DNA of 64,000 bases from a virus (Duplodnaviria; Heunggongvirae; Uroviricota; Caudoviricetes). Shown one piece after another: positions 2 through 64,000 of this stretch (position 1 is the stretch's first letter; each line of letters starts with the position of its first letter). The notes beneath the pieces were generated by a model that was not told the origin of the DNA, did no database searches, and saw nothing but the letters and a program-made list of their open reading frames with translations. The DNA is taken from positions 1 through 64,000 of IMG/VR virus record IMGVR_UViG_3300037504_000201. One strand, written 5' to 3'. The translations under genes were made by a program, and so were the position numbers.

Positions 2-1678
2 GCCCTTTTTCAGCCCGCCACGTGTCGTTACGCCCACGAGATGATTTCGTGGATGAAAAAGGGCTACCCCGGCATGGAGATGTGCCTGCAACTTTGCACC
101 GGCGACGGGCACATTCACGATTGCCCATTCCGCCGCCAGTCCAAGCGCAAGGAACCCATCGTCTACGGGCGGCACGAACACCTCGCCTACGGCGTTAGCG
201 TGAGAGACGGGTTCACACTGGGCGTCGTGGACGAACTGCCGCTCAAGGCGTTTATCCGTGAGCGCAAGATCGGGCACAAGCAGATCGACGAGGTGCGCGG
301 GAACGGCGGCCCACTAGACGCGCTGTTCGACCGGCTATACAACTTGATAAAATTCCCCGAGTCGTTTGGGGAGGACACGTGGTGGGGGCACCGTCTACTT
401 GATGAGATCGGGCCGATTCTTGACGACGTGTTTGCCGCCGTCGAGGTGGGCCAACTGCCGCTGCCTGAGATTCCGCCATTGTACGAGGCCAAGGATGTGT
501 TCGACGTCCCGGCCTTCTTTTGGGACGATCTATTGAAAAAGCTGTCCCCCGAATACGAGTGCTGGAAGGCAGGCTGGGTCAATTGGGTCCCCCGCGTCAA
601 GGTCAAGCCCGGCGTGGGCTTGCAAATCTTGGGCCGTGAGACGGTGTGGGAGAATCTGCCAGAGGCGCTGGTGGTGCTAGACGCCACCGGGTCCCCCGAG
701 ATATACGAGCATATTTTTAGACGCCCCATCCACAAGATCGTCGCCCCATCGGTCAAGGCGTCCGGGCGCATCTTCCAAGTCGTCCAGCGACTCAACAACA
801 TCACCGCCGTGATGGAGGCGACGGGCGAGGTAGACGACGAAGGGAAGAAACTGTACGCTCCTAAAAAGAACGGCGCCGAGATGCTCAAGTTAGCAGAGAT
901 GATCGCCGGGCACTATGAGCGACCGGGCCTGGTCACGTTCAAAGGATTAAAACGACACGCGCCTGAATGTTTCGGAGGGCGCGTGTTGCATTTTGGCGGA
1001 CTGCGAGGGCGCAACGTGCTAAAAGACGTGGATTGCTTGATCGTCGCCGGCGGGTTCTGCCCACCCATCCTTGCCGTGATGGACGCCTGCGCCGCAATCA
1101 CCGACCGGATGAAGCCATTCTTCGGCTACTCTGGAAGCGACCCGGTCAGCCCCTGGGTGCCCGCCGCCGTGCGCTACGTGACCAAGGACGGCTCGTGGGC
1201 ATGGCGTTACGTATCGGGATTTTGGAACGACCCCGACCTGCGCGCGTTCCTTGAGCAGTTCCGCCAGGCCGAGCTGGTGCAGTCCATTCACCGCTCACGC
1301 ATCAACTCGCGCCCAGAAAGCGACCCGGTGGATGTGTGGGTGCTGACGTCCATTCCGACCCAAGTCGAGCTGGACGGTGTGTATCAGTGCATCTCAGAGT
1401 CGCATCTATTCCCCAAGCGTGACACCGAGACGCACGAGGGTGTGTACTGGCCCCACTGGCTAAAGATCAAGCCAAAGCTGGACGAGCTGTGGGCGGCGGG
1501 CAGCGCGTGGGTAGACGCAGAGATGCTAGCCGGGTGGACGGGCGTGCAAGTTGAGACGGTGCGCTCTCAAAAGTGGCTTTCGTCCATCGCCGACTATGAA
1601 ACCGAGCGCTGGATTCTCAAGGACAAGCAGATCGGCAACGGACGACCACGCCTGGGGCTGCTGGCGGTGGAGAGTTAA
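2..1678 (+). CDS. hypothetical replication-module protein (5' end lies outside window)
   Basis: Long ORF whose frame is open to the window edge. Strand-like motifs VVLDATG and LIVAGG. No family recognised. Confidence 0.5.
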   Translation, partial: ALFQPATCRYAHEMISWMKKGYPGMEMCLQLCTGDGHIHDCPFRRQSKRKEPIVYGRHEHLAYGVSVRDGFTLGVVDELPLKAFIRERKIGHKQIDEVRGNGGPLDALFDRLYNLIKFPESFGEDTWWGHRLLDEIGPILDDVFAAVEVGQLPLPEIPPLYEAKDVFDVPAFFWDDLLKKLSPEYECWKAGWVNWVPRVKVKPGVGLQILGRETVWENLPEALVVLDATGSPEIYEHIFRRPIHKIVAPSVKASGRIFQVVQRLNNITAVMEATGEVDDEGKKLYAPKKNGAEMLKLAEMIAGHYERPGLVTFKGLKRHAPECFGGRVLHFGGLRGRNVLKDVDCLIVAGGFCPPILAVMDACAAITDRMKPFFGYSGSDPVSPWVPAAVRYVTKDGSWAWRYVSGFWNDPDLRAFLEQFRQAELVQSIHRSRINSRPESDPVDVWVLTSIPTQVELDGVYQCISESHLFPKRDTETHEGVYWPHWLKIKPKLDELWAAGSAWVDAEMLAGWTGVQVETVRSQKWLSSIADYETERWILKDKQIGNGRPRLGLLAVES

Positions 1679-1766
1679 CACGGTTCCGTGTTAATCAATT
1701 TGAGATAATTGATTGTCTTAAAATATAATAATAATGTTTTAAGCCAATCAATTAAGTCAAATTGAA
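1678..1766. repeat. AT-rich composite palindromic element, copy 1
   Basis: TAACACGGTTCCGTGTTA palindrome, then left arm AATCAATTTGAGATAATTGATT, an AT-rich spacer and right arm AATCAATTAAGTCAAATTGA. TTGAGA-18-TATAAT on the + strand (1700-1729). Confidence 0.8.
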
Positions 1767-1779
1767 CAAGGAGAAGACC

Positions 1780-7675: not shown

Positions 7676-8278
7676 ATGGAATACATTGATAATCTGATGG
7701 ACAAGCTGGAAGTGGTATTCGCCCCACCGTGGAAGCGTATACCTGGTAACACAATCGTCGCCGGCGATTACATCGACGTGAGCGTCAAAGGCCAATCCGG
7801 GAAGGTCGTCATTAACTTGTACTGTCGCCCTGACTGGCGCCTGCTCTATGAACGCTACGGACAAAGCGTGCTGGACGCGCGGGGAGACGAGCAATCCAAG
7901 ACGATAGCCGTGACGTGGGTGTACCCAAGTGCTGACGCAGTCGATCCGCAAGACGTCAGTCGGCGCGTGGAGTTCTTTCTGCGCGAGTTTGGCGTTGCGC
8001 ACCTGGTTGACCTCGACCTATGGGACGCGGCGGCGCTGTTGGTCGGCAACGGGCCGAAGTGGTGGGCGTACACAGAGATCCCGCTTGTCGAACGAGAGAT
8101 CAAGGACGGAGTGGTCACGGCGCACTACCGGCGCAACGATGAGGGTGAGGTGGTAGGATTCTTGCACGTCAAGCGCGCGTCCATTGACTTACCAGACGGC
8201 GCCGACAATATGTCGCTGACGTGGTCGGGCACGCCGGAAGAGATCAAGTCAGTCTGGGAGACGCTAGACTTCGCATAG
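7676..8278 (+). CDS. hypothetical protein
   Basis: 200-aa ORF. Start is 2 nt after the upstream stop. Confidence 0.55.
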   Translation: MEYIDNLMDKLEVVFAPPWKRIPGNTIVAGDYIDVSVKGQSGKVVINLYCRPDWRLLYERYGQSVLDARGDEQSKTIAVTWVYPSADAVDPQDVSRRVEFFLREFGVAHLVDLDLWDAAALLVGNGPKWWAYTEIPLVEREIKDGVVTAHYRRNDEGEVVGFLHVKRASIDLPDGADNMSLTWSGTPEEIKSVWETLDFA

Positions 8279-8289
8279 ATATATGACTT

Positions 8290-8350
8290 TGTTGATTCTC
8301 CTAAAACATTATTATTATATTTTAAGAGAATCAATTATGTCAAATTGAAT
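8290..8350. repeat. AT-rich palindromic element, copy 2 (right arm only)
   Basis: Arm GAATCAATTATGTCAAATTGAAT. TTGACA-18-TATAAT on the minus strand, so it points antisense here. Confidence 0.7.
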
Positions 8351-8373: not shown

Positions 8374-10149
8374 ATGACAATCACTCTACGCCCTTATCAA
8401 CAAGACGCCGTCGACGCCGCCTGGGTGCGTTTTGCAACCGACCAGAGCACGCTTTTCGCAATGGCGACGGGTTGCGGCAAGACCGCCGCCGCCTGCGGGA
8501 TGGGTGCCAGGCTGGTCGAGGAATACGGTCGGCCTATCCGCACGCTGCTCTTGTGCGACCAGCGGCACCTCACCAAGCAAGCGGTGAAGCACGTCGCCAA
8601 ACACTGGCAACACGTGCTGGGCACGCCGGGTGTGGTGATGGGCAAGCTGGACGAGTACAAACGCGACTTTGTGGCGTGCACCGTCCAGTCGCTCGTGTCG
8701 AACGGGCGCATGGCGCGCCTGCTGAGCAAGCCGGTTGACTTTGTCATCCTCGACGAGTGCCACCACGCTGTGGCACCCACCTGGCAACAGTGCATCGAGG
8801 AGATCAAGGACGCCAACCCCGACGTTAAAATCCTGGGTCTGACCGCCACGCCCCGCCGCACTGACGACGTGGGGCTTGAAAAAGTCTTTGACTCCGTCGC
8901 TTGCCGGTTGAGCATCGCCAAGGCGATTGAGATCGGCGCGCTGTGCCCGTTCGAGGCGCTGGGCTTCCGGCTTGAGCAAGCCGACCTCGACGCGCTGCGC
9001 CAGAACGAGGACGGAGAGTTCATCGACCAAGAAGAGGTGGACCGGATCCTTGAGGCCGCCAACGCCGAAGAGATTGTCATTGAGAAATGGGAAGAGTACG
9101 CGGCAGGACGCCCCACGCTCGTCTTTACCTCGACCGTGGCCCAAGCCTACCGGCTGGCGGCAAAGTTCCACGCCGCCGGGCACAAGTTCTATGCCATTGA
9201 AGGTAACACGCCCCAAGAGGAACGGGACCGGCTGGTCAAGGCCTACCGTGCTGGGGACATTGACGGCATCGTCAATGTGCGTGTGTTCGCCGAGGGGTTC
9301 GACGCCCCTTGGACCGAGTGCATCGCGTTCCTGGCCCCCACCGGCTCAGACCTCGTCTACGTGCAAAAGGTCGGGCGTGGCCTGCGACTCTACCCCGGCA
9401 AGGTCAAGGCGCTGATCCTCGACTTTGTGCCCGCCGGCGAGCGCGACTTCCGTATGGCCGGCGACCTACTGGAAGGCAAGCCCAAGGCTCAGCGCAAGGC
9501 CGAGAGCAAGGCCGCCGACGTAGGTGTGCTGTTCGGCCTGGGCATCAACTCAAAAGGCGAGGGCATCGACGCCGACCCCGACCAAGTGCGAATGATGGTG
9601 CTGGACTATCTGACCAACGGCGCGCGCGACTTGCCCTGGACGCTGTACAAAGACGACGGGCTGGCGACGTGCGCGATCTCGTTTAGTCGCACGCTGGCCG
9701 TCATCCTCAAGGGAGACGGCGACACCCCGCCCGAGGTCGCCGCCCGGCTTGATAAAGCGGACGGGGTCCGGGCGAACGGGGAATGGCAACCCAACTACGA
9801 CCCCGTCTACAAGGCGCTGTTGCGCCAGGACCACGGCAGCTTTAAGGTGCTGGAAGTGCGCGCGATAAAAGAAGAGGGACGCCGCACGCGATACGTCGTG
9901 ACGCCGTTGGGCCGGTCAGAGGATTGGGAGACGGCACGGGACATCGCAGAGCGGCACGCCGACAAGTGGGAAGACAAGCGCGTCGCCCGGCGCCGCAAGC
10001 AGTGGCGGGGTAAGCCGATGTCAGACAAGCAAATCCCGCTGTTGAAAAAGCTGCACATCTACTCGCCAGACCTAGACCGCGGTCAAGCGAGCCAGCTCAT
10101 TGACCACACATTCACCCGCCAGCGCCTTCAGCGCTACGGATATTTGTAA
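8374..10149 (+). CDS. SF2 DEAD/DEAH-box DNA helicase
   Basis: Motif I AMATGCGKT, motif II ILDECHH, motif III TATPRR. RBS AGGAGGGAG. Confidence 0.85.
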   Translation: MTITLRPYQQDAVDAAWVRFATDQSTLFAMATGCGKTAAACGMGARLVEEYGRPIRTLLLCDQRHLTKQAVKHVAKHWQHVLGTPGVVMGKLDEYKRDFVACTVQSLVSNGRMARLLSKPVDFVILDECHHAVAPTWQQCIEEIKDANPDVKILGLTATPRRTDDVGLEKVFDSVACRLSIAKAIEIGALCPFEALGFRLEQADLDALRQNEDGEFIDQEEVDRILEAANAEEIVIEKWEEYAAGRPTLVFTSTVAQAYRLAAKFHAAGHKFYAIEGNTPQEERDRLVKAYRAGDIDGIVNVRVFAEGFDAPWTECIAFLAPTGSDLVYVQKVGRGLRLYPGKVKALILDFVPAGERDFRMAGDLLEGKPKAQRKAESKAADVGVLFGLGINSKGEGIDADPDQVRMMVLDYLTNGARDLPWTLYKDDGLATCAISFSRTLAVILKGDGDTPPEVAARLDKADGVRANGEWQPNYDPVYKALLRQDHGSFKVLEVRAIKEEGRRTRYVVTPLGRSEDWETARDIAERHADKWEDKRVARRRKQWRGKPMSDKQIPLLKKLHIYSPDLDRGQASQLIDHTFTRQRLQRYGYL

Positions 10150-10155
10150 TTCAAT

Positions 10156-10184
10156 TTGACACAATTGATTTTTTGTTGTATGAT
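10156..10184 (+). promoter_or_regulatory. promoter within truncated element copy 3
   Basis: Arm TCAATTTGACACAATTGATT gives TTGACA-17-TATGAT pointing at 10208. Confidence 0.6.
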
Positions 10185-19416: not shown

Positions 19417-19506
19417 TACACGGTTCCGTGTTACTTAGCCGACTTAGTTTTAGCTCTTAAAACATATATTATATATTTTAAGAGAATCAATTATGTCAAA
19501 TTGATT
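19417..19506. repeat. AT-rich palindromic element, copy 4 (hairpin-extension type)
   Basis: TACACGGTTCCGTGTTA, then CTTAGCCGACTTAGTTTTAGCTC, spacer and arm GAATCAATTATGTCAAATTGATT. The TTGACA-18-TATATAAT it carries is on the minus strand. Confidence 0.75.
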
Positions 19507-30358: not shown

Positions 30359-30451
30359 AATCAATTTGAGATAATTGATTGTCTTAAAATATATAATATA
30401 TGTTTTAAGAGCTAAAACTAAGTCGGCTAAGTAACACGGAACCGTGTACAC
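30359..30451. repeat. AT-rich palindromic element, copy 5 (reverse-complement of the copy-4 type)
   Basis: Arm AAATCAATTTGAGATAATTGATT, spacer, then GAGCTAAAACTAAGTCGGCTAAG and TAACACGGAACCGTGTA. Confidence 0.75.
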
Positions 30452-30453
30452 TT

Positions 30454-30546
30454 TAACCATAATGACTTGGGCTGCTAAGTTGAAGCACCCACAGCATAAA
30501 GCCGATTGCCGCCAATAGAGCCAGCGCGGTGATGATGCATTCCATG
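30454..30546 (-). CDS. 30-aa hydrophobic peptide (MECIITALALLAAIGFMLWVLQ...)
   Basis: RBS GGAGTGGAAC 6 nt upstream. Single TM helix. Sits between the tape measure gene and element copy 5. Confidence 0.35.
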
Positions 30547-30579
30547 TTCCACTCCTTTATACACGGTTTAGTGTGCACT

Positions 30580-46145: not shown

Positions 46146-46210
46146 CGTAAAATAAAAGCGGTTCGCTAATGAGTCAAGCAGTCTTGCTTGACTCATTAGC
46201 GAACCGCTTA
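46146..46210 (-). terminator. rho-independent terminator (25-bp perfect stem)
   Basis: AAGCGGTTCGCTAATGAGTCAAGCA-agac-TGCTTGACTCATTAGCGAACCGCTT, then UUUAUUUUA on the minus-strand RNA. A GGCC-UUCG-GGCC tetraloop hairpin just upstream. Confidence 0.7.
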
Positions 46211-46486: not shown

Positions 46487-46516
46487 AGTATACACTATCC
46501 CGTGTATGGTTGTCAA
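46487..46516 (-). promoter_or_regulatory. leaderless promoter class C, copy 1, with TACAC-N6-GTGTA operator
   Basis: TTGACA-ACCATACACGGGATAGTG-TATACT-AGAT-ATG. Confidence 0.7.
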
Positions 46517-47143: not shown

Positions 47144-47164
47144 AATATCCCCTTCGTATAGATA

Positions 47165-47233
47165 TCTGACTTTATCGATTCTCCTAAAACATTATTATTA
47201 TATTTTAAAAGAATCAATTATCTCAAATTGATT
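47165..47233. repeat. AT-rich palindromic element, copy 6
   Basis: CTGACTTTATCGATTCTCCTAAAAC, spacer, arm GAATCAATTATCTCAAATTGATT. TTGAGA-18-TATAAT on the minus strand points at 46523-47143. Confidence 0.75.
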
Positions 47234-55696: not shown

Positions 55697-55726
55697 AGTA
55701 TACACCATACCGTGTATGGTTGTCAA
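55697..55726 (-). promoter_or_regulatory. leaderless promoter class C, copy 2
   Basis: TTGACA-ACCATACACGGTATGGTG-TATACT-TGTAAT-ATG. Confidence 0.7.
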
Positions 55727-55747: not shown

Positions 55748-55855
55748 TACACGGTTCCGTGTAACTTAGCCGACTTAGTTTTAGCTCTTAAAACATTATA
55801 TATATATTTTAAGGGAATCAATTATGTCAAATTGATTGCTCTTGAATGCACTAGG
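55748..55855. repeat. AT-rich palindromic element, copy 7 (hairpin-extension type)
   Basis: TACACGGTTCCGTGTA, CTTAGCCGACTTAGTTTTAGCTC, spacer, arm GAATCAATTATGTCAAATTGATT, extension TGAATGCACTAG. The minus-strand TTGACA-18-TATATATA is in sense. Confidence 0.75.
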
Positions 55856-56695: not shown

Positions 56696-56807
56696 CTCAA
56701 TCTCCTTTTTCATTCTAGCGATCCCCCATTACCGCATCGTTTTCAGCGGCACCCGCACGGCGCGGGCTGTAGGGCCAACCCTGCTTGTTAGGCGGGGGTT
56801 TTAGATA
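56696..56807 (-). ncRNA. conserved structured RNA leader, copy A
   Basis: 90-nt repeat with multi-hairpin potential. Compensatory changes relative to copy B. Confidence 0.4.
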
Positions 56808-57017: not shown

Positions 57018-57136
57018 TTCAATCTCTCCTTTTCTCATCAAGGCGATCCCCCATTACCGCATCGACTTTTCAGCGGCACCCGCACGGCGCGGGCTGTGGG
57101 GCCAACCCCGCTGGCTAGGCGGGGGTTTTGGAATTT
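57018..57136 (-). ncRNA. conserved structured RNA leader, copy B
   Basis: Near-identical to copy A, with a covarying GGGG-UUGG-CCCC versus AGGG-UUGG-CCCU stem. Confidence 0.4.
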
Positions 57137-57607: not shown

Positions 57608-57719
57608 CTTACTTCCTTTCTGCCGGTTTCTCGCGCACTCCGGCAAACGCTATCGGCCTTGCCACATCAGCTCCGGGCGGCCATCCCCGACGGACGCGGG
57701 CGCGTTGCCCGCGTTTCGG

Positions 57720-57947
57720 CTAGCGCTTTTTCAATTCGCGCCAAACGTCATCCTCAATCTTGGCATGAATGAAGCGCTTTTCGCCCTCATCGTACTCAAT
57801 CCCCTGCTCGCGACACCTCTTTTCCCAGCTATTCAAAACACCTTCGACGTATAGGCCAATGGACCAATCGAGAAATTCAGCAATGCTGAATGGGCTATCT
57901 TCCATCGCGCTATCGGCCACGCTGGCTAGCTTGTCAATGCTAGTCAT
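57720..57947 (-). CDS. hypothetical protein
   Basis: Internal Met overlapping the upstream stop. Confidence 0.35.
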   Translation of the reverse strand: MTSIDKLASVADSAMEDSPFSIAEFLDWSIGLYVEGVLNSWEKRCREQGIEYDEGEKRFIHAKIEDDVWRELKKR

Positions 57948-58140: not shown

Positions 58141-58380
58141 CTATCGATTTCCCGCGAACAAGGAGCGCGCCCACTCCTCGTCCGTCTGCGGCTTCTCATT
58201 CTCTCGTTCTGCGCGCGCTTGGCGCTGAATATCACGCGCGCGCTCTAACTCTTCCTCGCTCAGCCGGCACCACTCGTGGCGCCAAGCGCTGGACAACCCG
58301 TGCTGCTGAGCTTGCCCGGTCTCGATTTGCTCGCGGGTGACCGGCTTGCCGCACTTGCGGCACTTGCGCTCGTATATCAT
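58141..58380 (-). CDS. zinc-ribbon protein
   Basis: TAGATG junction with RBS AAGGAG. CRKCG...C motifs. Confidence 0.45.
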   Translation of the reverse strand: MIYERKCRKCGKPVTREQIETGQAQQHGLSSAWRHEWCRLSEEELERARDIQRQARAERENEKPQTDEEWARSLFAGNR

Positions 58381-58839
58381 CTACTCAATCTCCTTAATCG
58401 CGCTCAAGTCCCAGACCACCAGGTTGTAGCTCTGTTGCTGCCACATCCCCTTGTAGCCCAGGTCCTTGAGCCAGTTGGTCGTCATTTGCCAGATCGCGTC
58501 GTCCTCGTGCGCGAACTGGCTAACGAATTCGTCGGCCTTTGCGGTGGGCTGCCCATCGGCTACCCAGCCGTTGGCTTCCAGCCACTCGCCAAAGCCGGCG
58601 ATCTCGGTGGGATTGACGGCGATGTCGTCCATTTCTACCGTGACCTGCACTACGGGCTGAATCCCGTAGTGCCCGAAGATTTGGCCTTCCCAGTATTCGG
58701 GGTTCTGGCTCAGATAGACGCCTTGCCCCATCTGGGTGCCGCCCTTGCTTCCGGCTTGGCTTGCGCTGAAGCCATTGGCGCGGATGCTCTTGGCTGATTC
58801 TTCGGTCGTTATGTGGTAGAATTTCTTGGTCGCCATTTG
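58381..58839 (-). CDS. ADP-ribosyltransferase-like (H-Y-E type) protein, tentative
   Basis: RBS AGGAGA. FYHITTEE...GVYLSQNPEYWEG...VEMDD is consistent with H/Y/E ART or Tpt1-like folds. Confidence 0.3.
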   Translation of the reverse strand, partial: QMATKKFYHITTEESAKSIRANGFSASQAGSKGGTQMGQGVYLSQNPEYWEGQIFGHYGIQPVVQVTVEMDDIAVNPTEIAGFGEWLEANGWVADGQPTAKADEFVSQFAHEDDAIWQMTTNWLKDLGYKGMWQQQSYNLVVWDLSAIKEIE

Positions 58840-58875
58840 CCGTCTCCTAGTTGGTCCATCTCCTAACCTGGCTAT

Positions 58876-58904
58876 AGTATACCACACATTCTAGAATATG
58901 TCAA
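58876..58904 (-). promoter_or_regulatory. sigma70-type promoter class A, copy 3
   Basis: TTGACA-TATTCTAGAATGTGTGG-TATACT. Same ATTCTAGAAT palindrome and upstream CAATTG as the copies at 2156 and 3025. Confidence 0.65.
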
Positions 58905-58945
58905 GTAAGTGGTGGCAATTGGTCTAAGTTTTTAAGGTTCGGTAG

Positions 58946-59036
58946 AATTCAATTTGACATAATTGATCGGCTTAAAACATATATTATATATTTTAAAAGA
59001 ATCAATTATGTCAAATTGATTGTGCGTGAATGCACT
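58946..59036. repeat. AT-rich palindromic element, copy 8 (complete two-arm copy)
   Basis: Left arm ATTCAATTTGACATAATTGATCGG, spacer, right arm GAATCAATTATGTCAAATTGATT plus GTGCGTGAATGCACTAG. Minus-strand TTGACA-18-TATATAAT. Confidence 0.8.
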
Positions 59037-59056
59037 AGATTGCGATGCAATAGGAA

Positions 59057-60664
59057 TTATACCCAACCCATAAGGACGGCGTTGTCGCCTTCGAGGGCGA
59101 AGGATAGCGCCAGGGCGTCGGCTTTATCTGGGGATCGTCCGAGGGAATCGCGCATCTTGTCTTTAGGCGTGATGCGTCGCACGCCACCTTTGTTCTCGTA
59201 CTGGATCGCCGTCAGCTCTTGCGCCAGTTGGTCGTCTGGCGGCAGCATCGCCGTAGGGTCGTCGTGAAGCCAGCGGCGCACCTGGTCGAATAGATAGGCG
59301 CGCAGGTCATAGTAGGCGGTGACGCCATCCTCGTTGGGTGGTGACTTCCAGCTTACCTTGACGCCCAGCACCTGCGTCTCGGCGAACGGCACGCGCTCGG
59401 AGCGGGCGAGGCCGGCAATCTCTTGTATCCTCTCAATCTCTTCGCGCATCCTTGGCGCCACACCGGCACCAACTCCCACGGCGTCCACGGCCACGGCGGC
59501 GGGGTGCACGTTGGCCAGGCGCATCGTCGCCTCTTTCGCCGTCTCGTTGGGGTCGATGCCGTTCCACAGCTCAAGCGGCGCCACCCACCCACCGTAGCGC
59601 TTGCACAGACAGTTAAAGTCGGCGCCAAACTCGGCGATGTCCAGCCCGACCAGCGGCGCGATGCCAGGCGGTTGGTCGCCCACCAGCTCTTGCCTCAGCT
59701 TCCATCGCCCCATCGCGCGCGTTACGTCGCTTTCGGGGATGAGCTGATTGAGCGACTGGCCGGGGAAGCGGGCCAGAACGATGTAGGAGAGTTGCGGGTC
59801 TTCGACTTTGCGCCACCCGGCGCCGACCTGGTCTGCTAAAAAGTCGGGCACCTTAAAATATTCAAGCTCGGCCTCGTCGAACTTTTCTCCGTCAACAACC
59901 GGGCGCGACCACTTTTCTATGCGCCGGATCGTTCGTCGTCTCGTCACGGCCCCGCCGGGGATCACTGTCTCGCCGGTGATGACGTTAGGATGGGAGAAGG
60001 CGTCGAGGGTGACGACGTGGGCGCCTTGGGTGATGAGCTTGTAGGCCGGTGAATTCTTGGACCTCGGGTTGAACATCACAAGCAGCCGGGCGAACCCGCC
60101 GCTCATACACGACTCAATGCCGCGATACACCTCTTCGGGCACCGCATCCCCTTCGTCAATGATAAAGAGAAGGAAGGGAGCGTGCTTGCCGGCAAACTTG
60201 GCTTCACGTTCTGCGCTGGATCCGCTCGTCGGGATCGCCACACCGTCAAACCACCAGTTAGGCCCGGCAGCGATGTGCATGGTGTGCACGTCGCAATCAT
60301 TGAACAGCTCCGGATGGTCCATAACGCGCTGGTCCACCTCGCCCCACAGCAGGCGCTGGAGGTTGTCAAGTGGCGGGGCAGCAGCGCTGACGATCTTGGA
60401 GTTGGTGAGGCAGCGGAAGAACCACACGCCCACGTCGGCGGCGATAAACGTCTTGCCGACGGCATTAGCCGACTTGACGACGGTGACGCGGTGGTCGACG
60501 ACGGACTGCAGTACCTCGGCTTGCCCGTCGGTGACGTGGTGGCCCAGTACGCGCCGGGAGAAGCCGATAGGGTCGAAGGCCCAGGCGGACCATTCGTTGG
60601 GGGAGAGGCGTTTTAGCCCGGCGACGGCCTCGCGCTGAAGAAGGTAGCGGTCATTCCTCGCCAT
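59057..60664 (-). CDS. terminase large subunit
   Basis: Walker A KSANAVGKT. About 535 aa with a nuclease-like C-terminus. Overlaps the small subunit gene. Confidence 0.75.
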   Translation of the reverse strand: MARNDRYLLQREAVAGLKRLSPNEWSAWAFDPIGFSRRVLGHHVTDGQAEVLQSVVDHRVTVVKSANAVGKTFIAADVGVWFFRCLTNSKIVSAAAPPLDNLQRLLWGEVDQRVMDHPELFNDCDVHTMHIAAGPNWWFDGVAIPTSGSSAEREAKFAGKHAPFLLFIIDEGDAVPEEVYRGIESCMSGGFARLLVMFNPRSKNSPAYKLITQGAHVVTLDAFSHPNVITGETVIPGGAVTRRRTIRRIEKWSRPVVDGEKFDEAELEYFKVPDFLADQVGAGWRKVEDPQLSYIVLARFPGQSLNQLIPESDVTRAMGRWKLRQELVGDQPPGIAPLVGLDIAEFGADFNCLCKRYGGWVAPLELWNGIDPNETAKEATMRLANVHPAAVAVDAVGVGAGVAPRMREEIERIQEIAGLARSERVPFAETQVLGVKVSWKSPPNEDGVTAYYDLRAYLFDQVRRWLHDDPTAMLPPDDQLAQELTAIQYENKGGVRRITPKDKMRDSLGRSPDKADALALSFALEGDNAVLMGWV

Positions 60665-61145
60665 CAATTCGCTGCTCGACCAGCGCGTCGATTAGCGCGT
60701 CCAGCTTCTCCGCGCGCTCGGTGTCGGTTAGGCCGGCGTGGACGGATTCAATGGGGCCGCCGTCCTTGCCGGTCAGCTCGGTGCGCGTCGGCGCGTCCAG
60801 TCCCATGAGGTCAGCCCGGCGCTTCATCAACTTGAGCACCCGGTCAATCGCGCTGTAATCGCCTTGCGCCGCCCGCGTCCAGATGCCAAGCAGCATCCGG
60901 TCGATGCGCTCAAGTTCTAGCGTGCGAACGGCGCCCGCATCGTCTGCGATTTGGTCACGCAACTTTTCAAGCTCGCGCTTGACGTCTTTGTGCGCGTAGC
61001 GTTCACCCCACCCACCGGGTAGATTGTCAATGCCAAACTCTCGCACCGCAGCGGCGGCGATGTCGCGATATGTGGCACCGGCACGGCGCATTTTTAGCAC
61101 GTATTCACGTCGTTCTGCCGTGTCTAACAAATCGCTTGTACCCAT
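60651..61145 (-). CDS. terminase small subunit (putative)
   Basis: N-terminal HTH (RRAGATYRDIAAAA). Position immediately upstream of the large subunit. Confidence 0.55.
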   Translation of the reverse strand: MGTSDLLDTAERREYVLKMRRAGATYRDIAAAAVREFGIDNLPGGWGERYAHKDVKRELEKLRDQIADDAGAVRTLELERIDRMLLGIWTRAAQGDYSAIDRVLKLMKRRADLMGLDAPTRTELTGKDGGPIESVHAGLTDTERAEKLDALIDALVEQRIDGEE

Positions 61146-61159
61146 CTTTGCGTACCCTA

Positions 61160-61894
61160 TTACTCCAACAACTCTGGTTCAAGCCCCATATCGGCCAAGC
61201 GTTGGAGCGCCACCGCCACATATTTCGGCTCTATCTCGATTCCTCTGCATTGCCGGCCTAGTCGCTCGCAAGCCACGGCGGTTGTGCCGGAGCCAAGGAA
61301 GGGGTCGAAGACCACATCACTGGAGTCGCTGCCGTGACGAAGCGCATTCTCGCACAATTCGACCGGCTTCATGGTTGGGTGCTCCCGCGACGCCGAAGGC
61401 TTGTCGTACTCCCACACAGTCGTCTGCTTGCGGTCGAGCGGCGCATGATGGTCTGCGCCGGGCTTCCATCCATAAAACAGTACCTCGTGCCTGTAATGGT
61501 AATCCGAATGCCCAAGCACCATCGTGTTTTTTACCCATACGATTGTCTGTCGCCACACCCCAATGCTCTTTAGTACTGTTGCGAAATCGTAGAATTGCGG
61601 CCCCGCCGGGGCCGCAATGTACCAGCACGCCCCATCGCGGCTCACATCGAAGGCCATGCATAGCGACTCGGACAGCAGCCCCAGAAGATCGTCCGCGCCG
61701 TCGTTCTGGATGGTAAGCGCGTCATCGGTCTTGCCGACGTAATCCACTCCATACGGCGGGTCAGTCACCACGCAATCCGCCTTCTCCCCGTCCATCACTA
61801 AATCAACAACGTCGGGATCGGTACAATCACCACAGACAAGTCTATGGCGGTACTTGATCTCTGGCTCAAATTCGTGACCGCATTGGCATTTCAT
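61160..61894 (-). CDS. DNA methyltransferase (N6-adenine/N4-cytosine, beta class) with N-terminal zinc ribbon
   Basis: DPPYG (motif IV) precedes FDPFLGSGTT (motif I). Starts 2 nt after the ParB-like stop. Confidence 0.8.
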   Translation of the reverse strand: MKCQCGHEFEPEIKYRHRLVCGDCTDPDVVDLVMDGEKADCVVTDPPYGVDYVGKTDDALTIQNDGADDLLGLLSESLCMAFDVSRDGACWYIAAPAGPQFYDFATVLKSIGVWRQTIVWVKNTMVLGHSDYHYRHEVLFYGWKPGADHHAPLDRKQTTVWEYDKPSASREHPTMKPVELCENALRHGSDSSDVVFDPFLGSGTTAVACERLGRQCRGIEIEPKYVAVALQRLADMGLEPELLE

Positions 61895-61896
61895 AG

Positions 61897-62529
61897 CTAA
61901 TCCAGCTTGTGCAATCTGCCGCACTTGGGGCAAATTGTATAACGCCCAATCCCCCACAACTGCCCAGATTCAACCCCCCACTTTTTGCGCAGCTCTTCCG
62001 CCTTGTCGATCTGCGCGCCGGGGTCCTCGGGCGGCTCTTGCGATAGCGCCAACAACGCCTCGATATCGCCCACGTCAAACGCCACCGGCGCCTCGTCCAT
62101 CTGCGCAAGCTCGGCAAGCTGCTGCTCAAAGTCGGCTTCCCACATTCGCATATGGTCAGTGAGATCAAAGTCGCCGCCGGATAGCGTCAATGCGTTGTGG
62201 TCCACTCCGTACGACTTGGCAGCCGCCTCGCTGGCAGCGTCAACGCCGAACGTGACGGGCACAAGCCAGCCGCCGTTGTCGTCAACAGCAATCCCGCGCG
62301 GCGGGTCGTCGCCAGCATTGCGCATCGCGTCCAACGCGATAAAGCGCCCGTTGCCTTCAACAATCCCGCCGTCGCCCTTGTTCAGCTGCGGCTCGAATTT
62401 AGGCGAGTCCTTGAATCCGTGGCGTTTGAAGGACTTAATCAGCGCCTCAATGTCATGGCGCTTCTTGTTATCGTCCCAAAGCAGCGCGAGGTTCAATGGC
62501 ACGTATTCGATGGTCAGTTTATCACTCAT
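61897..62529 (-). CDS. ParB-like nuclease domain protein
   Basis: Leaderless start. GNGRFIALDA and surrounding region are ParB/Srx-like. Paired with the methyltransferase. Confidence 0.5.
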   Translation of the reverse strand: MSDKLTIEYVPLNLALLWDDNKKRHDIEALIKSFKRHGFKDSPKFEPQLNKGDGGIVEGNGRFIALDAMRNAGDDPPRGIAVDDNGGWLVPVTFGVDAASEAAAKSYGVDHNALTLSGGDFDLTDHMRMWEADFEQQLAELAQMDEAPVAFDVGDIEALLALSQEPPEDPGAQIDKAEELRKKWGVESGQLWGIGRYTICPKCGRLHKLD

Positions 62530-62535
62530 ACCTCA

Positions 62536-62565
62536 AGTATACACTATCCCGTGTACGCTTGTCAA
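62536..62565 (-). promoter_or_regulatory. leaderless promoter class C, copy 3
   Basis: TTGACA-AGCGTACACGGGATAGTG-TATACT-TGAGGT-ATG. Confidence 0.7.
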
Positions 62566-62578
62566 CTGGATACGCCTA

Positions 62579-62652
62579 AAATCAATTTGACTTAATTGAT
62601 TGGCTTAAAACATATAATATATATTTTAAAGGAATCAATTAAGTCAAATTGA
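62579..62652. repeat. AT-rich palindromic element, copy 9 (two-arm)
   Basis: Arms AATCAATTTGACTTAATTGATT and GAATCAATTAAGTCAAATTGAAT. TTGACT-18-TATATA on both strands. Confidence 0.8.
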
Positions 62653-62668
62653 ATTCTACCGATTGGTA

Positions 62669-62698
62669 TAAAAAAAGCCCCGCCGGGGGGGCGGGGCC
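62669..62698 (-). terminator. rho-independent terminator
   Basis: On the minus RNA: GGCCCCGCC-CCCC-GGCGGGGC, then UUUUUUUAUACC. Confidence 0.7.
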
Positions 62699-62715
62699 TT
62701 GCGGGGCGGGTTGCT

Positions 62716-62931
62716 CTACACTCGTTCGTCGAACTCCTGGGCGCGGATGATGCGTGTCTCGTGGGCGGTGACGTCAATGCCGGCCTCGCGGCACGCATAG
62801 CGCCAATCTTTGATCAGCCCGTCGATGTACTCATCACGCGAGCGTCCAAACTCGGTAAGCGTCAACGGGCAATAGGCGAGTGTCTGCTCGGCGATGCGCC
62901 GAAGGACGGTCCAGCGGGCGTCGTTATTCAT
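62716..62931 (-). CDS. hypothetical protein
   Basis: RBS GGGGAGG, 4 nt before the internal ATG. 8-nt overlap with the upstream gene. Confidence 0.45.
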   Translation of the reverse strand: MNNDARWTVLRRIAEQTLAYCPLTLTEFGRSRDEYIDGLIKDWRYACREAGIDVTAHETRIIRAQEFDERV

Positions 62932-63169
62932 CGTCCTCCCCTTTCGGCATCTTGGCGCCATATAGCGACAGATGCAAATTCTTCCACGCCACCGCCGCGC
63001 TGGTGCCGAGCGAGCCTTTAGCCGCTTCGGCGTCGTCGCGCGACGGGAACAGCTTGATTGTGCCATCGTCGTTCTTGATAGCTTGTTGACCGCTCGTCAC
63101 GGCGATGAAGACGATGTCGTCGGCGGCATGCTGGCTAGCGTTGAATAGACTGTGTTGCGTGGCGTTCAT
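62924..63169 (-). CDS. hypothetical protein
   Basis: ATGA coupling. Confidence 0.45.
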   Translation of the reverse strand: MNATQHSLFNASQHAADDIVFIAVTSGQQAIKNDDGTIKLFPSRDDAEAAKGSLGTSAAVAWKNLHLSLYGAKMPKGEDDE

Positions 63170-63468
63170 TCCAGCACCTCATCCGCCTTGGGCGCATAGG
63201 CCCAGGCGTCAACATTGGACGGATCAATCTCCCATCCGTCGTCGTCGATAAAGCGGCTGGGGCGCGTCGCGTCGTATGACGCGATTTGCAACGCGCCGTC
63301 CATCATAATCAAGCAGCGCGCATACGGCTTGGGCTGATCAGTATTTGCGTGCCATTCAAGCGTTGTCCGCCGCAGAACCTCCTTATGATACGGCCCCGGC
63401 TCGCTGTTTACAATTCCTCCCTGCGCCTTGATAAAACTCTTGGCTAATCGCAAGCCCTTCTTGCTCAT
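63166..63468 (-). CDS. hypothetical protein
   Basis: ATGA coupling with RBS GGAGGG. Confidence 0.45.
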   Translation of the reverse strand: MSKKGLRLAKSFIKAQGGIVNSEPGPYHKEVLRRTTLEWHANTDQPKPYARCLIMMDGALQIASYDATRPSRFIDDDGWEIDPSNVDAWAYAPKADEVLE

Positions 63469-63854
63469 TTCAACCCTCCATAAATCTTTCGCCACTCCTC
63501 AAATCCCAGCCGCTCGGCATCCTCTGACGGCGCGCGCTCTGCGCACTCGTCATAGCTCAGATGCTTGGATCCAGCCTTCACCCACTCGCCAATGGCCTCG
63601 TCGGCGCTGCAAGCGTCGTGAGCGCGAATGGCACGTTCGGCAGTCTTGACGTCGATCTCGCCGTTAACGAGCCCAGACACCACCCACTCGGCAAAGTCGC
63701 CCTGAGCGTCGGGGCTATCTGACTGCTCGATGGTCCAAGAGATGAGATTGAGCAACTCGGACCACGTTAGGGCTTGGATTGCGTCGAATCCGTAGACGAT
63801 CGCGCCGCCGGGCCAGCGCCTGACGGTTACGTCGGGGGATAGTTGTTTTTTCAT
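63465..63854 (-). CDS. hypothetical protein
   Basis: RBS AAGGAGAG. A 100-bp GC-rich structured leader lies upstream. Confidence 0.45.
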   Translation of the reverse strand: MKKQLSPDVTVRRWPGGAIVYGFDAIQALTWSELLNLISWTIEQSDSPDAQGDFAEWVVSGLVNGEIDVKTAERAIRAHDACSADEAIGEWVKAGSKHLSYDECAERAPSEDAERLGFEEWRKIYGGLK

Positions 63855-64000
63855 TGATCTCTCCTTATCACTATGTGCCAGCCATTCCGGCACTCCTGCC
63901 CGCCCCGGTGGTCTGGCGCTTCCACCGTCTCGCCCGTGCTGTGAAGCTGTCGCCATCGGGTGGGCGGGCAGCAGGGCCGGAAACCCGGCGCCTGCTAAAT

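What the first reader, a model, noticed from the sequence alone, without database searches (positions are those of the whole stretch)
58946..59036. Nine-copy AT-rich composite palindromic intergenic element carrying TTGACA-18-TATAAT hexamers
An AT-rich element of about 75 bp recurs at 1678-1766, 8290-8350, 10150-10190, 19417-19506, 30359-30451, 47165-47233, 55748-55855, 58946-59036 and 62579-62652. The genome is otherwise about 62% GC.

The full form has two 22-bp arms, each itself a palindrome (AATCAATT-N6-AATTGATT), whose 6-bp core spells TTGACA, TTGAGA or TTGACT. The arms flank a 30-bp spacer, TTAAAA(T/C)ATATAATATAT(G)TTTTAAG. Arm centres are about 50 bp apart, roughly five helical turns.

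Reading from the arm core gives near-consensus sigma70 promoters with an 18-nt spacer (TTGACA-18-TATATAAT). Copies 1, 3, 6, 7, 8 and 9 point toward the downstream gene. All the - strand copies follow an intrinsic terminator or a stop codon, which fits dedicated late or middle promoters. Copies 2, 4 and 5 are different: the arm lies next to the downstream RBS and the embedded promoter points antisense.

The mix of promoter hexamers with nested dyad symmetry suggests promoter/operator cassettes for a phage regulator. They are comparable in concept to actinophage stoperators or start-associated sequences, but with a different sequence and architecture. The alternatives are MITE-like module-boundary elements or recombination sites.
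Basis: seen in the sequence. Interest (0 to 1): 0.85.

Follow-up and report, generated by a model that had tools for sequence, protein, structure and literature searches.

The report
Repeated palindromic promoter-like cassettes in a phage
An uncultured phage carries eight copies of a 75-bp AT-rich palindromic element, plus one lone arm, wedged between its genes; they most likely act as promoter/operator cassettes that also swap parts with one another, a new variant of a kind of element already known from T4-like phages.

Summary
The repeat is real. The arm motif AATCAATT-N6-AATTGATT occurs 12 times, against 0.12 expected by chance. It forms eight 75-bp elements plus one lone arm, all in short intergenic gaps of a 58% GC metagenomic phage that has no close relative.

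Each element has the layout [X arm]-NN-CTTAAAAC-(A/T)13-TTTTAAR-NN-[A' arm]. Only three copies have two A-type arms. Five have one arm replaced by a decayed B or C arm.

Every A arm holds TTGA(C/G)(A/T) in its non-palindromic core, pointing inward, with a -10-like hexamer 18 nt away. The lone arm is the -35 of a textbook TTGACA-17-TATGAT promoter.

The copies are mosaics of one another. A second dyad, TACACGG-N4-GTGTA, abuts four copies and also sits inside three other promoters.

My best reading (confidence 0.45) is a PeSL-like promoter/operator cassette. It would pair a sigma70-type promoter, whose -35 lies inside a dyad operator, with a disabled mirror-image partner.

The weak points are these:
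- Three of eight intact promoters point antisense.
- No regulator was identified.
- No relatives exist for comparison.

I found nothing that supports a MITE, a known RNA family or an intrinsic terminator. I rate it a new variant of a known kind, of moderate interest.

The parts
1678..1767 (.). E1. The palB dyad (1678-1691) is followed by a full element (1693-1767), lying between the stop codon at 1678 and the RBS/ATG at 1780. The sense promoter is TTGAGA-18-TATAAT at 1700-1729 (+). The mirror arm reads TTGACT-18-CATTAT at 1760-1731 (-).
8276..8350 (.). E2. A C-type (decayed) arm overlaps the stop codon of gene 7676-8278, followed by the centre and an intact A' arm that abuts the RBS of the helicase gene (ATG 8374). 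The intact promoter, TTGACA-18-TATAAT (12 of 12) at 8343-8314, points antisense (-). A weak sense site, TTGATT-18-TATATT, lies at 8292-8321.
10149..10184 (+). E3. A lone A arm (10149-10170) serves as the -35 and dyad of a TTGACA-17-TATGAT promoter (10156-10184). It starts at the last base of the helicase stop codon and lies 24 nt upstream of the DUF5131 gene ATG (10208).
19418..19506 (.). E4. palB (19418-19431), a B arm, the centre and an A' arm. It lies after a GC-rich hairpin and before the RBS/ATG at 19527 (a 54-aa membrane protein, then a DUF1737 protein). The intact A promoter (-35 at 19499-19494, TATATA at 19475-19470) points antisense (-).
30359..30447 (.). E5. The same B-type unit as E4, on the other strand. 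Reading along the minus-strand genes, the order is a 30-aa membrane ORF stop (30453), palB (30447-30434), the B arm, the centre, the A' arm, then the RBS/ATG of the amidase gene (30342). The intact A promoter (30366-30371 and 30390-30395, +) is antisense.
47159..47233 (.). E6. A C-type element lying exactly between the stop codon of gene 47234-47698 (-) and the RBS/ATG at 47143. The intact promoter TTGAGA-18-TATAAT at 47226-47197 (-) points with the genes.
55749..55837 (.). E7. A B-type element with palB (55749-55762). It lies between the terminator at 55917-55898 (-) and the D4b promoter at 55726-55697 (-). The intact A promoter (-35 at 55830-55825, TATATA at 55806-55801, -) points with the genes.
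58947..59021 (.). E8, the copy given in the finding. It is a full palindrome lying between the terminase large-subunit stop codon (59057) and the D14c promoter at 58904-58876 (-). The sense arm is a perfect dyad with TTGACA-18-TATATA (59014-58985, -). The antisense arm has 2 mismatches, with TTGACA-18-CATATA.
62580..62654 (.). E9. A full palindrome lying between the terminator at 62700-62674 (-) and the D4c promoter at 62565-62536 (-). The sense arm reads TTGACT-18-TATATA (62647-62618, -) and the antisense arm TTGACT-18-CATATA.
30561..30574 (.). An extra palB-type dyad (TACACGG-N4-GTGTG) lying between the tape-measure gene stop codon and the RBS of the 30-aa membrane ORF. It belongs to the second dispersed dyad family that accompanies E1, E4, E5 and E7.
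46487..46516 (-). D4a promoter, TTGACA-18-TATACT, with the palB-type dyad in its spacer. The other members of this family are 55726-55697 and 62565-62536, the companion promoters just downstream of E7 and E9.
58876..58904 (-). D14c promoter, TTGACA-17-TATACT, with TTCTAGAA in its spacer, 43 bp downstream of E8. The other members of this family are 2156-2184 (+) and 3025-3053 (+).

Best explanation
The elements are composite regulatory cassettes of the phage. They work like the PeSL promoter/stem-loop cassettes of T4-type phages.

Each intact A arm is a sigma70-type -35 hexamer (TTGACA, TTGAGA or TTGACT) embedded in a 22-bp dyad, AATCAATT-N6-AATTGATT. I infer that this dyad is the operator of a dimeric phage-encoded regulator that has not been identified. 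The AT-only centre supplies the -10 region 18 nt downstream.

Because the arms are inverted, the full element is a pair of face-to-face promoters with abutting -10 hexamers, so only one polymerase can occupy it at a time. One of the two promoters is disabled in every copy. The disabling is either a C in place of T at the first -10 position, or that change together with decay of the whole arm into the B or C form.

Two arms 53 bp apart (about five helical turns) would let bound dimers cooperate across the bendable centre. A second dyad, TACACGG-N4-GTGTA, presumably the site of a second regulator, abuts four copies and sits in the spacer of three other promoters. This ties the elements into a wider circuit.

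The 75-bp homology also lets copies exchange segments, which explains their mosaic make-up.

Shown directly by the sequence: the anatomy, the statistics, the placement and the mosaicism. Inferred: promoter activity, regulator binding and cooperation between arms.
For: 1. All 12 A arms keep the asymmetric core T-TGA(C/G)(A/T)(T/C) between invariant half-sites TCAATT and AATTGA. A purely symmetric binding site would not need a conserved asymmetric core.
2. The lone arm E3 is the -35 of TTGACA-17-TATGAT (11 of 12), placed to give a 17-nt leader with an RBS before the DUF5131 gene.
3. E1, E2 and E6 score 11-12 of 12 against the sigma70 consensus. Ten sites in the 60 kb scanned score at least 11 of 12, and four of them are in these elements. 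All ten lie in AT-rich intergenic islands.
4. The 18-nt spacing is the one used by the phage's own D4 promoters.
5. In the three full palindromes, the T-initial hexamer belongs to the arm pointing with the genes and the C-initial hexamer to the antisense arm (3 of 3). In all five one-armed copies, the decayed arm is on the C side.
6. The phage's other promoter families each carry their own dyad: TTCTAGAA in D14 and TACACGG-N4-GTGTA in D4. The D4 dyad recurs next to E1, E4, E5 and E7, with 8 sites found against 0.8 expected.
7. The five arms that deviate at outer arm positions 1, 2, 21 or 22 show no compensating change in the pairing partner. This fits DNA-level recognition rather than hairpin pairing within an arm.
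8. Segment-wise identities between copies are discordant. For example, E5 matches E4 at 100% in the X arm and centre, but matches E1 at 100% in the A' arm. Of 253 informative column pairs, 126 show all four gametes.
9. PeSLs are described as sigma70 promoter plus AT-rich tract plus stem-loop. Their subclasses include one where the stem-loop overlaps the -35, degraded half copies occur, and crossovers fall inside the element (PMC2839356 and PMC4122927).
10. A distant relative by its helicase (L246) has repeated terminator/box/promoter cassettes and a 76-nt palindrome whose arms carry CTTGACATAA face to face.
Against: - The intact promoter points with the genes in only 5 of 8 elements. In E2, E4 and E5 it is antisense, and E2's is the best consensus match in the window. 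A 5-to-3 split is not distinguishable from random orientation.
- Five arms have TATATA, with A rather than the critical T at the last -10 position. In an AT-only centre, some -10-like hexamer at the right distance is expected by chance.
- E7, E8 and E9 sit just upstream of separate strong promoters, so a promoter there looks redundant.
- A sigma70 promoter alone does not explain why CTTAAAAC and TTTTAAR at the edges of the centre are conserved.
- No regulator was identified. Pfam, PHROGs, PDB sequence search and two structure predictions gave nothing significant for the candidate proteins.
- There are no relatives close enough to test conservation or filled versus empty sites.
- High identity between copies may reflect recent copying rather than selection.
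Confidence: 0.45

Rival explanations
1. The arms are dispersed operator or roadblock sites only, working like stoperators. They bind a phage repressor that silences or blocks transcription wherever a site occurs. The TTGACA core would be a relic of the operator at a true promoter such as E3, and the composite elements would not initiate transcription themselves.
For: The dyad is invariant in its inner 6+6 bp in all 12 arms. The sites lie in very short gaps between a stop codon and an RBS. Orientation relative to the genes is mixed, which matters little for a symmetric site. L5 operators and stoperators are likewise found both in promoters and in short intergenic spaces (PMC9283540).
Against: This does not explain the conserved 27-bp AT-rich centre or the fixed 18-nt distance to TATAAT or TATATA. 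It also does not explain why decay of one arm always coincides with the C-initial hexamer on the same side. No repressor or integrase was found in the window, so there is no sign of lysogeny.
Confidence: 0.15
2. The element is an RNA-level signal. Transcripts crossing it fold into hairpins that act as processing sites (RNase III type), stabilisers or attenuators between cistrons, as in the T7 intercistronic sites.
For: Full copies fold at about -32 kcal/mol, with z-scores of -8.5 to -9.8. E1, E2, E3 and E6 have no upstream terminator, so they are probably transcribed through. The arm cores are complementary between the two arms in E8 and E9 even though the two copies differ (TGACAT/ATGTCA versus TGACTT/AAGTCA). 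A palindrome folds the same way in either orientation.
Against: Five of the eight copies (the B and C types) form only short AU hairpins, at -18 to -22 kcal/mol with z about -3. The linker dinucleotides are never complementary. The five arms that deviate at outer arm positions show no compensating change, and E1's cores are not complementary. There are no U-tracts and no GC stems, so these are not intrinsic terminators. Rfam gives only far-sub-threshold generic hairpin hits. The conserved asymmetric TTGA core is left unexplained.
Confidence: 0.1
3. The element is a selfish or passively spreading repeat. It would be MITE-like, or a linker for homologous recombination between modules, with regulatory hexamers that are incidental or merely carried along.
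For: Subfamily units up to about 100 bp (palB, B arm, centre and A') are nearly identical at three sites, in both orientations relative to the genes. The copies are mosaics. The elements bracket gene blocks such as the ORFan and ribozyme block between E8 and E7 and the helicase between E2 and E3. PeSLs are proposed to act as such linkers.
Against: The flanks show no target-site duplications. No transposase or recombinase was found in the window. There are no copies in 185,579 reference genomes, in IMG/VR or in the metagenome set under two patterns. The elements fit exactly between stop codon and RBS, with the RBS context conserved. A recombination role is compatible with a regulatory role rather than excluding it.
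Confidence: 0.15
4. The element is an assembly site for a nucleoprotein complex with a non-transcriptional role. Candidates are replication initiation (binding sites flanking a DNA-unwinding element), dispersed centromere-like sites as in phage N15, or cruciforms acted on by the phage's junction resolvase.
For: Two dyads flank an easily melted AT palindrome, with the arms in helical phase at 53 bp. A ParB-like N-terminal domain protein and a Holliday-junction resolvase homologue are encoded just after E9 and E7.
Against: Eight to nine origins would be unprecedented. The ParB-like protein is the type linked to a DNA methylase, and no ParA partner or HTH domain was detected. The asymmetric -35-like core and the lone-arm promoter remain unexplained.
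Confidence: 0.05

Closest known systems
PeSL (promoter-early stem-loop) regulatory cassettes of T4-type phages (Arbiol et al. 2010, PMC2839356; Comeau et al. 2014, PMC4122927)
   Same: Both are repeated composite intergenic cassettes, conserved over about 75-100 bp. Both combine a near-consensus sigma70 promoter, an AT-rich tract and a stem-loop-forming dyad. In one PeSL subclass the stem-loop overlaps the -35. Many copies of both abut the Shine-Dalgarno sequence and start codon. Both show degraded half copies, and both show evidence of exchange between copies.
   Different: - PeSL stem-loops are G/C-rich and work as terminators. Here the stems are A/T-rich, have no U-tract, and the whole element is a nested palindrome.
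- PeSL promoters point at the downstream gene. Here 3 of 8 point antisense.
- PeSLs cluster in hyperplastic ORFan regions of T4-like myoviruses. This phage is unrelated, and its copies also sit at core genes (helicase, terminase, amidase).
- Mini-circles and indels between sister phages could not be tested here.
Stoperators and operators of cluster A mycobacteriophages (L5 gp71; PMC9283540)
   Same: In both, many copies of a repressor-type site are dispersed through a phage genome, both inside promoters and in very short intergenic spaces.
   Different: Stoperators are 13-bp asymmetric sites bound by a monomer, and their orientation correlates strictly with the direction of transcription. Here the site is a 22-bp dyad inside a 75-bp composite element with mixed orientation, and no repressor gene was found.
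SAS and ESAS of cluster K mycobacteriophages (PMC3203893)
   Same: Both are repeats placed immediately upstream of gene starts. ESAS adds a pair of 17-bp imperfect inverted repeats.
   Different: SAS is a 13-bp asymmetric GGGATAGGAGCCC that overlaps the RBS 3-7 bp before the start codon. It occurs in one orientation and only in the non-structural arm. ESAS spacers are 4-13 bp. Here the element has different sequence, size and composition, a 31-bp AT spacer, copies in both genome arms, and promoter hexamers.
Halovirus HF2 intergenic repeats (PMC8707807)
   Same: Both are a handful of conserved AT-rich intergenic repeats of 29-58 bp or more in a virus genome. The HF2 repeats were shown by reporter assays to carry promoters, and counter-transcripts were observed.
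   Different: HF2 is an archaeal virus with archaeal promoter elements. Its repeats are not palindromic composites.
Face-to-face promoter switches of coliphages P2 and 186 (from my own knowledge, not checked here)
   Same: In both, two convergent promoters lie close enough to interfere with each other, and operators overlap them.
   Different: Those are single-copy developmental switches with start sites tens of bp apart. Here the -10 hexamers abut, the unit is repeated eight times, and one partner is degraded.
BIME/REP mosaic elements of enterobacteria (from my own knowledge, not checked here)
   Same: Both are extragenic mosaic elements built from inverted palindromic units flanking a central motif, with combinatorial variants.
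   Different: BIME/REP elements are chromosomal, GC-rich, present in hundreds of copies and tied to RAYT transposases. None of these features is seen here.

Membership tests
PeSL cassettes (T4-type phages) | A near-consensus sigma70 -35/-10 pair within the repeat | tested here: met
   E1, E2, E3 and E6 score 11-12 of 12. The other copies read TTGAnn-18-TATATA.
PeSL cassettes (T4-type phages) | An adjacent or overlapping stem-loop that acts as a transcription terminator (G/C-rich stem) | tested here: not met
   Dyads are present, but they are A/T-rich and lack a U-tract, and the terminator scan calls none of them. Separate GC-rich terminators lie upstream of E7 and E9.
PeSL cassettes (T4-type phages) | The promoter is oriented toward the downstream gene, with the SD sequence and ATG at the 3' end of the cassette | tested here: inconclusive
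   Six copies abut an RBS and ATG. However, the intact promoter is sense in 5 of 8 elements (plus E3) and antisense in E2, E4 and E5.
PeSL cassettes (T4-type phages) | Recombination between copies (chimeric copies, indels between sister phages, mini-circles) | tested here: inconclusive
   The copies are mosaic, with discordant segment identities and 126 of 253 four-gamete pairs. No sister genome is available to show indels.
PeSL cassettes (T4-type phages) | The host genome is a T4-like myovirus with hyperplastic regions | tested here: not met
   No DNA match to any GenBank phage. The nearest cultured terminase is below 40% identity, in Salinibacter phages. The gene content is not T4-like.
Stoperators (cluster A mycobacteriophages) | A 13-bp asymmetric site bound by a monomeric repressor | tested here: not met
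   The site here is a 22-bp dyad. Protein binding cannot be tested with these tools.
Stoperators (cluster A mycobacteriophages) | Site orientation correlates with the direction of transcription | tested here: not met
   Element polarity is 5 sense to 3 antisense.
SAS/ESAS (cluster K mycobacteriophages) | A 13-bp GGGATAGGAGCCC motif 3-7 bp before the start codon, in one orientation | tested here: not met
   The sequence is different. The elements end 12-23 nt before the ATG, and both orientations occur.
MITE | Terminal inverted repeats flanked by target-site duplications | tested here: not met
   Inverted arms are present in 3 copies, but no direct repeats flank any copy.
MITE | Copies occur in other genomes or alongside a parent transposon | tested here: not met
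   No hits in the genome, viral or metagenome collections with the specific pattern. The two-arm pattern hits are unrelated sequences. No transposase was found.
Intrinsic terminator | A GC-rich stem followed by a U-tract | tested here: not met
   None of the elements is called by the terminator scan. The stems are AU-only or AU-rich.
Any Rfam RNA family | A score at or above the family's gathering threshold | tested here: not met
   No gathering-level hit lies at any copy. At E8 there are only miRNA-precursor models scoring 19-32 bits against thresholds of 90-171.
Dispersed parS or centromere sites (as in phage N15) | A ParA/ParB partition pair encoded by the element's genome | tested here: not met
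   Only a ParB-like N-terminal domain next to a methylase, with E about 1e-5. No ParA was found. About 13.7 kb of the contig lies outside the window and was not seen.

The most novel reading that the evidence does not exclude
The elements are a previously undescribed kind of switchable, self-complementary promoter module. Each is a pair of face-to-face sigma70 promoters sharing one AT-rich melting region, gated by a dimeric regulator bound to dyads wrapped around each -35.

The copies whose only intact promoter is antisense (E2, E4, E5) fire into the preceding genes. This would hold back or time the expression of the genes behind them: the helicase, a small membrane protein and the amidase (that is, lysis), by transcriptional interference or antisense RNA. 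The effect would last until the regulator shuts those promoters off.

Copies in opposite orientation would also produce mutually complementary RNAs. The same modules would double as the recombination linkers that shuffle gene blocks.
Probability: 0.15. Interest if true: 0.7.

Novelty: new variant of a known kind. Interest (0 to 1): 0.5.

Why it matters
If the reading is right, this phage controls much of its gene expression with one reusable 75-bp module. That module combines a promoter, an operator and a mirror-image decoy.

It would extend the PeSL idea of mobile regulatory cassettes from T4-like phages to an unrelated, uncultured lineage, and in a new architecture: nested palindromes and face-to-face promoters. 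The three antisense-only copies in front of the replication and lysis genes would be a testable case of timing by promoter interference.

For annotation, the elements mark the boundaries of transcription units in a genome where almost no gene has a known function. They also explain why short-read assemblies of this phage break at those points.

Tried and rejected
**Searches for the element elsewhere**
- A specific 29-nt pattern (spacer edge plus arm) gave no hits in IMG/VR, in 185,579 reference genomes or in the metagenome set.
- The arm motif alone in IMG/VR gave more than 117 single chance hits in AT-rich contigs, which was uninformative.
- A two-arm pattern gave 4 viral and more than 120 metagenome hits. 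All were unrelated tandem or CRISPR-like arrays.

**Searches for relatives**
- Megablast of 8 kb against GenBank phages found no match.
- The terminase in IMG/VR found none.
- The nearest terminase homologue is 55% identical and the nearest helicase homologue 44%.
- The contigs of those relatives (L119, L120, L245, L248, L249) lack the element. Only L246 shows an analogous palindrome.
- I tried to reach the 13.7 kb of the contig outside the window through Logan contigs. That gave only 62612-63975, and the left-end gene was not on record.

**Regulator hunt**
- Pfam and PHROGs on about 90 ORFs, some concatenated, found no confident HTH, sigma factor, RNA polymerase, integrase or ParA. The concatenated structural block from about 23760 to 49770 was not scanned with Pfam.
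- The AlphaFold model of 13731-14150 was unusable (pLDDT 42).
- The model of 2767-2949 is a three-helix bundle (pLDDT 74). Its best Foldseek hits are LuxR-type HTH domains, but at E of at least 1.8, which is not significant.

**Ideas considered and dropped**
- IHF site: the arms match only the WATCAA part of the consensus.
- FNR or ArgR type host sites: the half-sites are in the wrong order.
- Integron attC: no integrase, mixed orientation and kilobase spacing.
- Mini-ORF in the arm (ATGTCAAATTGA): absent from half the copies.
- B-type copies as small-RNA genes ending at the palB hairpin: only E7 has a U-run after it.
- Literature search for the arm sequence: only chance matches.
Full report
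**Context.** The window is part of a 77.7-kb metagenomic contig of a tailed phage. It encodes a terminase large subunit, portal, major head protein, tape measure, amidase, SF2 helicase, DUF5131 protein, primase-like protein, RNA ligase, dCTP deaminase and a DNA methylase. Genes run on the + strand up to about 20.2 kb and on the - strand from about 20.3 kb to the end. GC content is about 58% throughout, not 62%.

The phage is an orphan:
- It has no DNA match in GenBank phages.
- The nearest cultured terminase is below 40% identity.
- The nearest metagenomic terminase is 55% identical and the nearest helicase 44%.

An independent Logan assembly of run SRR12689834 reproduces 58154-62611, 62612-63975 and 8319-10706 at 100% identity. 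Its contigs end inside copies 9 and 2. The repeats are therefore real sequence, and they confuse assemblers as repeats do.

- The arm motif gives 12 matches against 0.12 expected.
- Its inner part gives 14 against 1.25.
- The centre gives 9 against 0.58.
- The repeat finder returns an eight-member 74-nt family.
- All copies are intergenic.
- Of the 13 strongly AT-rich islands in the window, 9 are these elements and 2 are other promoters.

**Anatomy.** I put all copies in one polarity. The element then reads [X arm, 22 nt]-NN-C(T/C)TAAAAC-(A/T)13-TTTTAA(G/A)-NN-[A' arm, AATCAATTA(T/A)(G/C)TCAAATTGA(T/A)T]. The arm starts are 53 bp apart.
- The A' arm is intact in all eight elements.
- The X arm is A-like in E1, E8 and E9, which makes them 35-38-nt inverted repeats at 86-87% complementarity.
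- In E4, E5 and E7 the X arm is a B arm, ACTTAGCCGACTTAGTTTTAG, always preceded by a 14-bp palindrome ACACGGTTCCGTGT that I call palB.
- In E2 and E6 the X arm is a C arm, TAGATATMTGACTTTRTYGATT.
- The B and C arms still share GACnT(A/T)nTT with the A arm. They look like A arms that have lost the outer half-site and the TTG.
- E3 is a single A arm.

One base breaks the symmetry of the centre in every copy: a C on the X side where the A' side has a T.

**Promoter-like content.** Every A arm has the same non-palindromic core, which with the preceding T reads TTGACA (6 arms), TTGAGA (3) or TTGACT (3). It always points toward the centre. Eighteen nucleotides downstream lies one of the following:
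- TATAAT in E1 sense, E2 and E6;
- TATATA in E4, E5, E7, E8 sense and E9 sense;
- CATTAT or CATATA on the C side, in E1, E8 and E9 antisense.

E3 has TTGACA-17-TATGAT, followed by an RBS and the ATG of the DUF5131 gene.

The consensus scan covered 60 kb; 20001-24000 was not scanned. It finds ten sites scoring at least 11 of 12. Four are in these elements. The other six form two further families:
- D14, TTGACA-TATTCTAGAATGTGT..-TATAAT/TATACT, at 2156(+), 3025(+) and 58904(-);
- D4, TTGACA-18-TATACT, at 46516, 55726 and 62565(-).

Nine of the ten point with the genes. The exception is E2, which is a perfect 12 of 12 and points antisense.

**Placement.** E1, E2, E3 and E6 fill the whole gap between a stop codon and the next RBS. 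In E4 and E5 the A' arm likewise runs up to the next RBS; upstream, E4 follows a GC-rich hairpin and E5 follows the 30-aa ORF's stop and palB. E7 and E9 lie between a strong intrinsic terminator and a D4 promoter, and E8 lies between the terminase stop codon and a D14 promoter.

Because the arms point inward, the gene-distal arm is the sense promoter.
- The distal arm is intact in E1, E6, E7, E8 and E9.
- It is decayed in E2, E4 and E5, where only the antisense promoter survives.

In the three full palindromes, the T-initial hexamer always belongs to the sense arm. In all five one-armed copies, the decayed arm is on the C side. Each element therefore has one live and one disabled promoter. Since all copies share this polarity by descent, the fair statistic is orientation relative to the genes, which is 5 sense to 3 antisense. 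That is not significant.

**A second dyad.** The motif ACAC-N6-GTGT occurs 8 times against 0.8 expected. More fully it reads TACACGG-N4-GTGTA.
- Four sites abut E1, E4, E5 and E7.
- Three lie in the spacers of the D4 promoters.
- One precedes the RBS of a 30-aa membrane ORF upstream of E5.

With the TTCTAGAA dyad in D14, the phage thus has three promoter classes, each carrying TTGACA plus its own dyad. That pattern fits a cascade of regulators acting on host polymerase. No sigma factor or phage RNA polymerase was detected in the window.

**RNA or DNA?** Full copies would fold at about -32 kcal/mol as RNA and about -20 as DNA, with z-scores near -9. B and C types reach only -18 to -22, with z about -3.

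Several observations argue against a hairpin function:
- The linker dinucleotides are never complementary.
- In the five arms that deviate at outer arm positions 1, 2, 21 or 22, no pairing partner carries a compensating change.
- E1's cores are not complementary, although those of E8 and E9 are.
- There are no U-tracts.
- No Rfam family matches; only generic hairpin hits appear, far below threshold.

A single RNA-structure function therefore does not fit all copies. The invariant inner half-sites say nothing either way.

**Mosaicism.** Identity computed by segment groups the copies differently.
- X arm: {E1, E8, E9}, {E2, E6}, {E4, E5, E7}.
- Centre: {E1, E2, E6} and {E4, E5, E8, E9}.
- A' arm: E1 = E5 at 100% and E4 = E8 at 100%.

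Half of the informative column pairs (126 of 253) show all four gametes. The copies have exchanged segments, or have been assembled from modules.

**Mobility.** I see no target-site duplications, no transposase and no copies elsewhere.

**Relatives.** Contigs of the nearest relatives lack the element. One distant relative by its helicase is L246, at 40% identity. It has repeated terminator/box/TTGACA-17-TGnTAYAAT cassettes. It also has a 76-nt palindrome, in two copies, whose arms carry CTTGACATAA face to face. One of those copies sits between a terminator and a promoter, as E7 and E9 do. I treat this as an analogy, not demonstrated homology.

**Comparison with known systems.** The closest described kind is the PeSL cassette of T4-type phages. 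It combines a sigma70 promoter, an AT-rich tract and a stem-loop, conserved over about 100 bp. Its subclasses include one with the stem-loop over the -35, degraded half copies occur, and crossovers fall inside the cassette (PMC2839356 and PMC4122927).

This element shares the composite logic, the placement and the signs of exchange. It differs in three ways:
- It lacks a GC-rich terminator stem.
- It does not keep a consistent orientation.
- It sits in an unrelated phage.

So it works like a PeSL but is not a member of that family.

Other known systems match less well:
- Stoperators are 13-bp asymmetric, orientation-bound sites (PMC9283540).
- SAS/ESAS are RBS-overlapping 13-mers, with or without 17-bp inverted repeats separated by 4-13 bp (PMC3203893). 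Neither set of defining features is met here.
- Halovirus HF2 intergenic repeats are a precedent for conserved AT-rich viral repeats shown experimentally to be promoters (PMC8707807).

**Verdict.** The best-supported mechanism, at about 0.45, is a promoter/operator cassette: a sigma70-type promoter whose -35 lies in a dyad operator, built as a face-to-face pair with one partner disabled, and capable of exchange between copies.

Three things remain unexplained: the three antisense-only copies, the conserved edges of the centre, and the redundancy with adjacent promoters. No regulator was identified. I rate it a new variant of a known kind, with interest about 0.5.

Noticed in passing
window 57651-57721 (-): A type II hammerhead ribozyme match (RF02276) scores 41 bits against a gathering score of 37. 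It lies in an intergenic gap of the ORFan block between E8 and E7. In the alignment the conserved CUGAUGA box reads CUGAUGU, so catalytic competence is uncertain.
   Followed up: partly
window 1678-1691, 19418-19431, 30434-30447, 30561-30574, 46492-46505, 55702-55715, 55749-55762, 62541-62554: A second dispersed dyad family, TACACGG-N4-GTGTA, has 8 sites against 0.8 expected. Sites lie next to four of the elements, in the spacers of the three D4 promoters, and before the RBS of a 30-aa membrane ORF. It is probably the operator of another regulator.
   Followed up: partly
window 46487-46516, 55697-55726, 62536-62565 (-): The D4 promoters (TTGACA-18-TATACT) are followed by an ATG only 4-6 nt after the -10. 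This suggests leaderless mRNAs for a 79-aa protein, a Holliday-junction resolvase homologue and a ParB-like/methylase gene. It may be a clue to the host.
   Followed up: no
window 2156-2184 (+), 3025-3053 (+), 58876-58904 (-): The D14 promoter family shares about 35 nt, including a TTCTAGAA palindrome in the spacer. Similar ATTCTAGG strings follow E2, E3 and E9. This may be a third operator.
   Followed up: no
window 46156-46209: A perfect 25-bp inverted repeat with a 4-nt loop (-32 kcal/mol as DNA), followed by a T-run on the - strand, forms a strong terminator. Its descending arm carries TTGACT-17-TATTTT, just before the RBS of gene 46135. A terminator and a promoter appear to overlap here, ahead of the head-gene block.
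   Followed up: partly
window 56706-56805 and 57031-57132: Two roughly 100-nt stretches are repeated 325 bp apart at 85-92% identity. This looks like a tandem duplication of a small gene plus its upstream region within the ORFan block.
   Followed up: no
window 45735-45802 and 50580-50647: A 68-nt GC-rich stretch is repeated at 84% identity inside two different coding regions, gene 45158-46135 and the portal gene. Shared protein segment or recombination trace; not examined.
   Followed up: no
window 55843-55854 and 59027-59038: TGAATGCACTAG occurs 5-6 nt beyond the A' arm of both E7 and E8. These two copies therefore share an extension outside the 75-bp core. On its own it is no more frequent than chance.
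   Followed up: partly
window 61897-62529 and 61160-61894 (-): A ParB-like N-terminal domain protein is followed by an N6/N4 DNA methylase, just upstream of the terminase small and large subunit genes. This pair is usually a single fused protein in phages but appears split here.
   Followed up: no
L246 273-348 and 7702-7777; boxes at 772, 7782, 11703, 15883, 17480: A contig related through its helicase (ENA ERZ27247828, 67.7 kb) has a 76-nt palindrome with CTTGACATAA-bearing arms. It also has a repeated box 20 nt upstream of extended -10 promoters, each after a terminator. This is a PeSL-like cassette system in another uncultured phage.
   Followed up: partly
window 19527-19691 (+) and 30453-30545 (-): Two very small single-pass membrane ORFs (54 and 30 aa) flank B-type elements, and the 30-aa one lies just upstream of the amidase gene. 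They may be holin- or spanin-like lysis components. There is no homology support.
   Followed up: no
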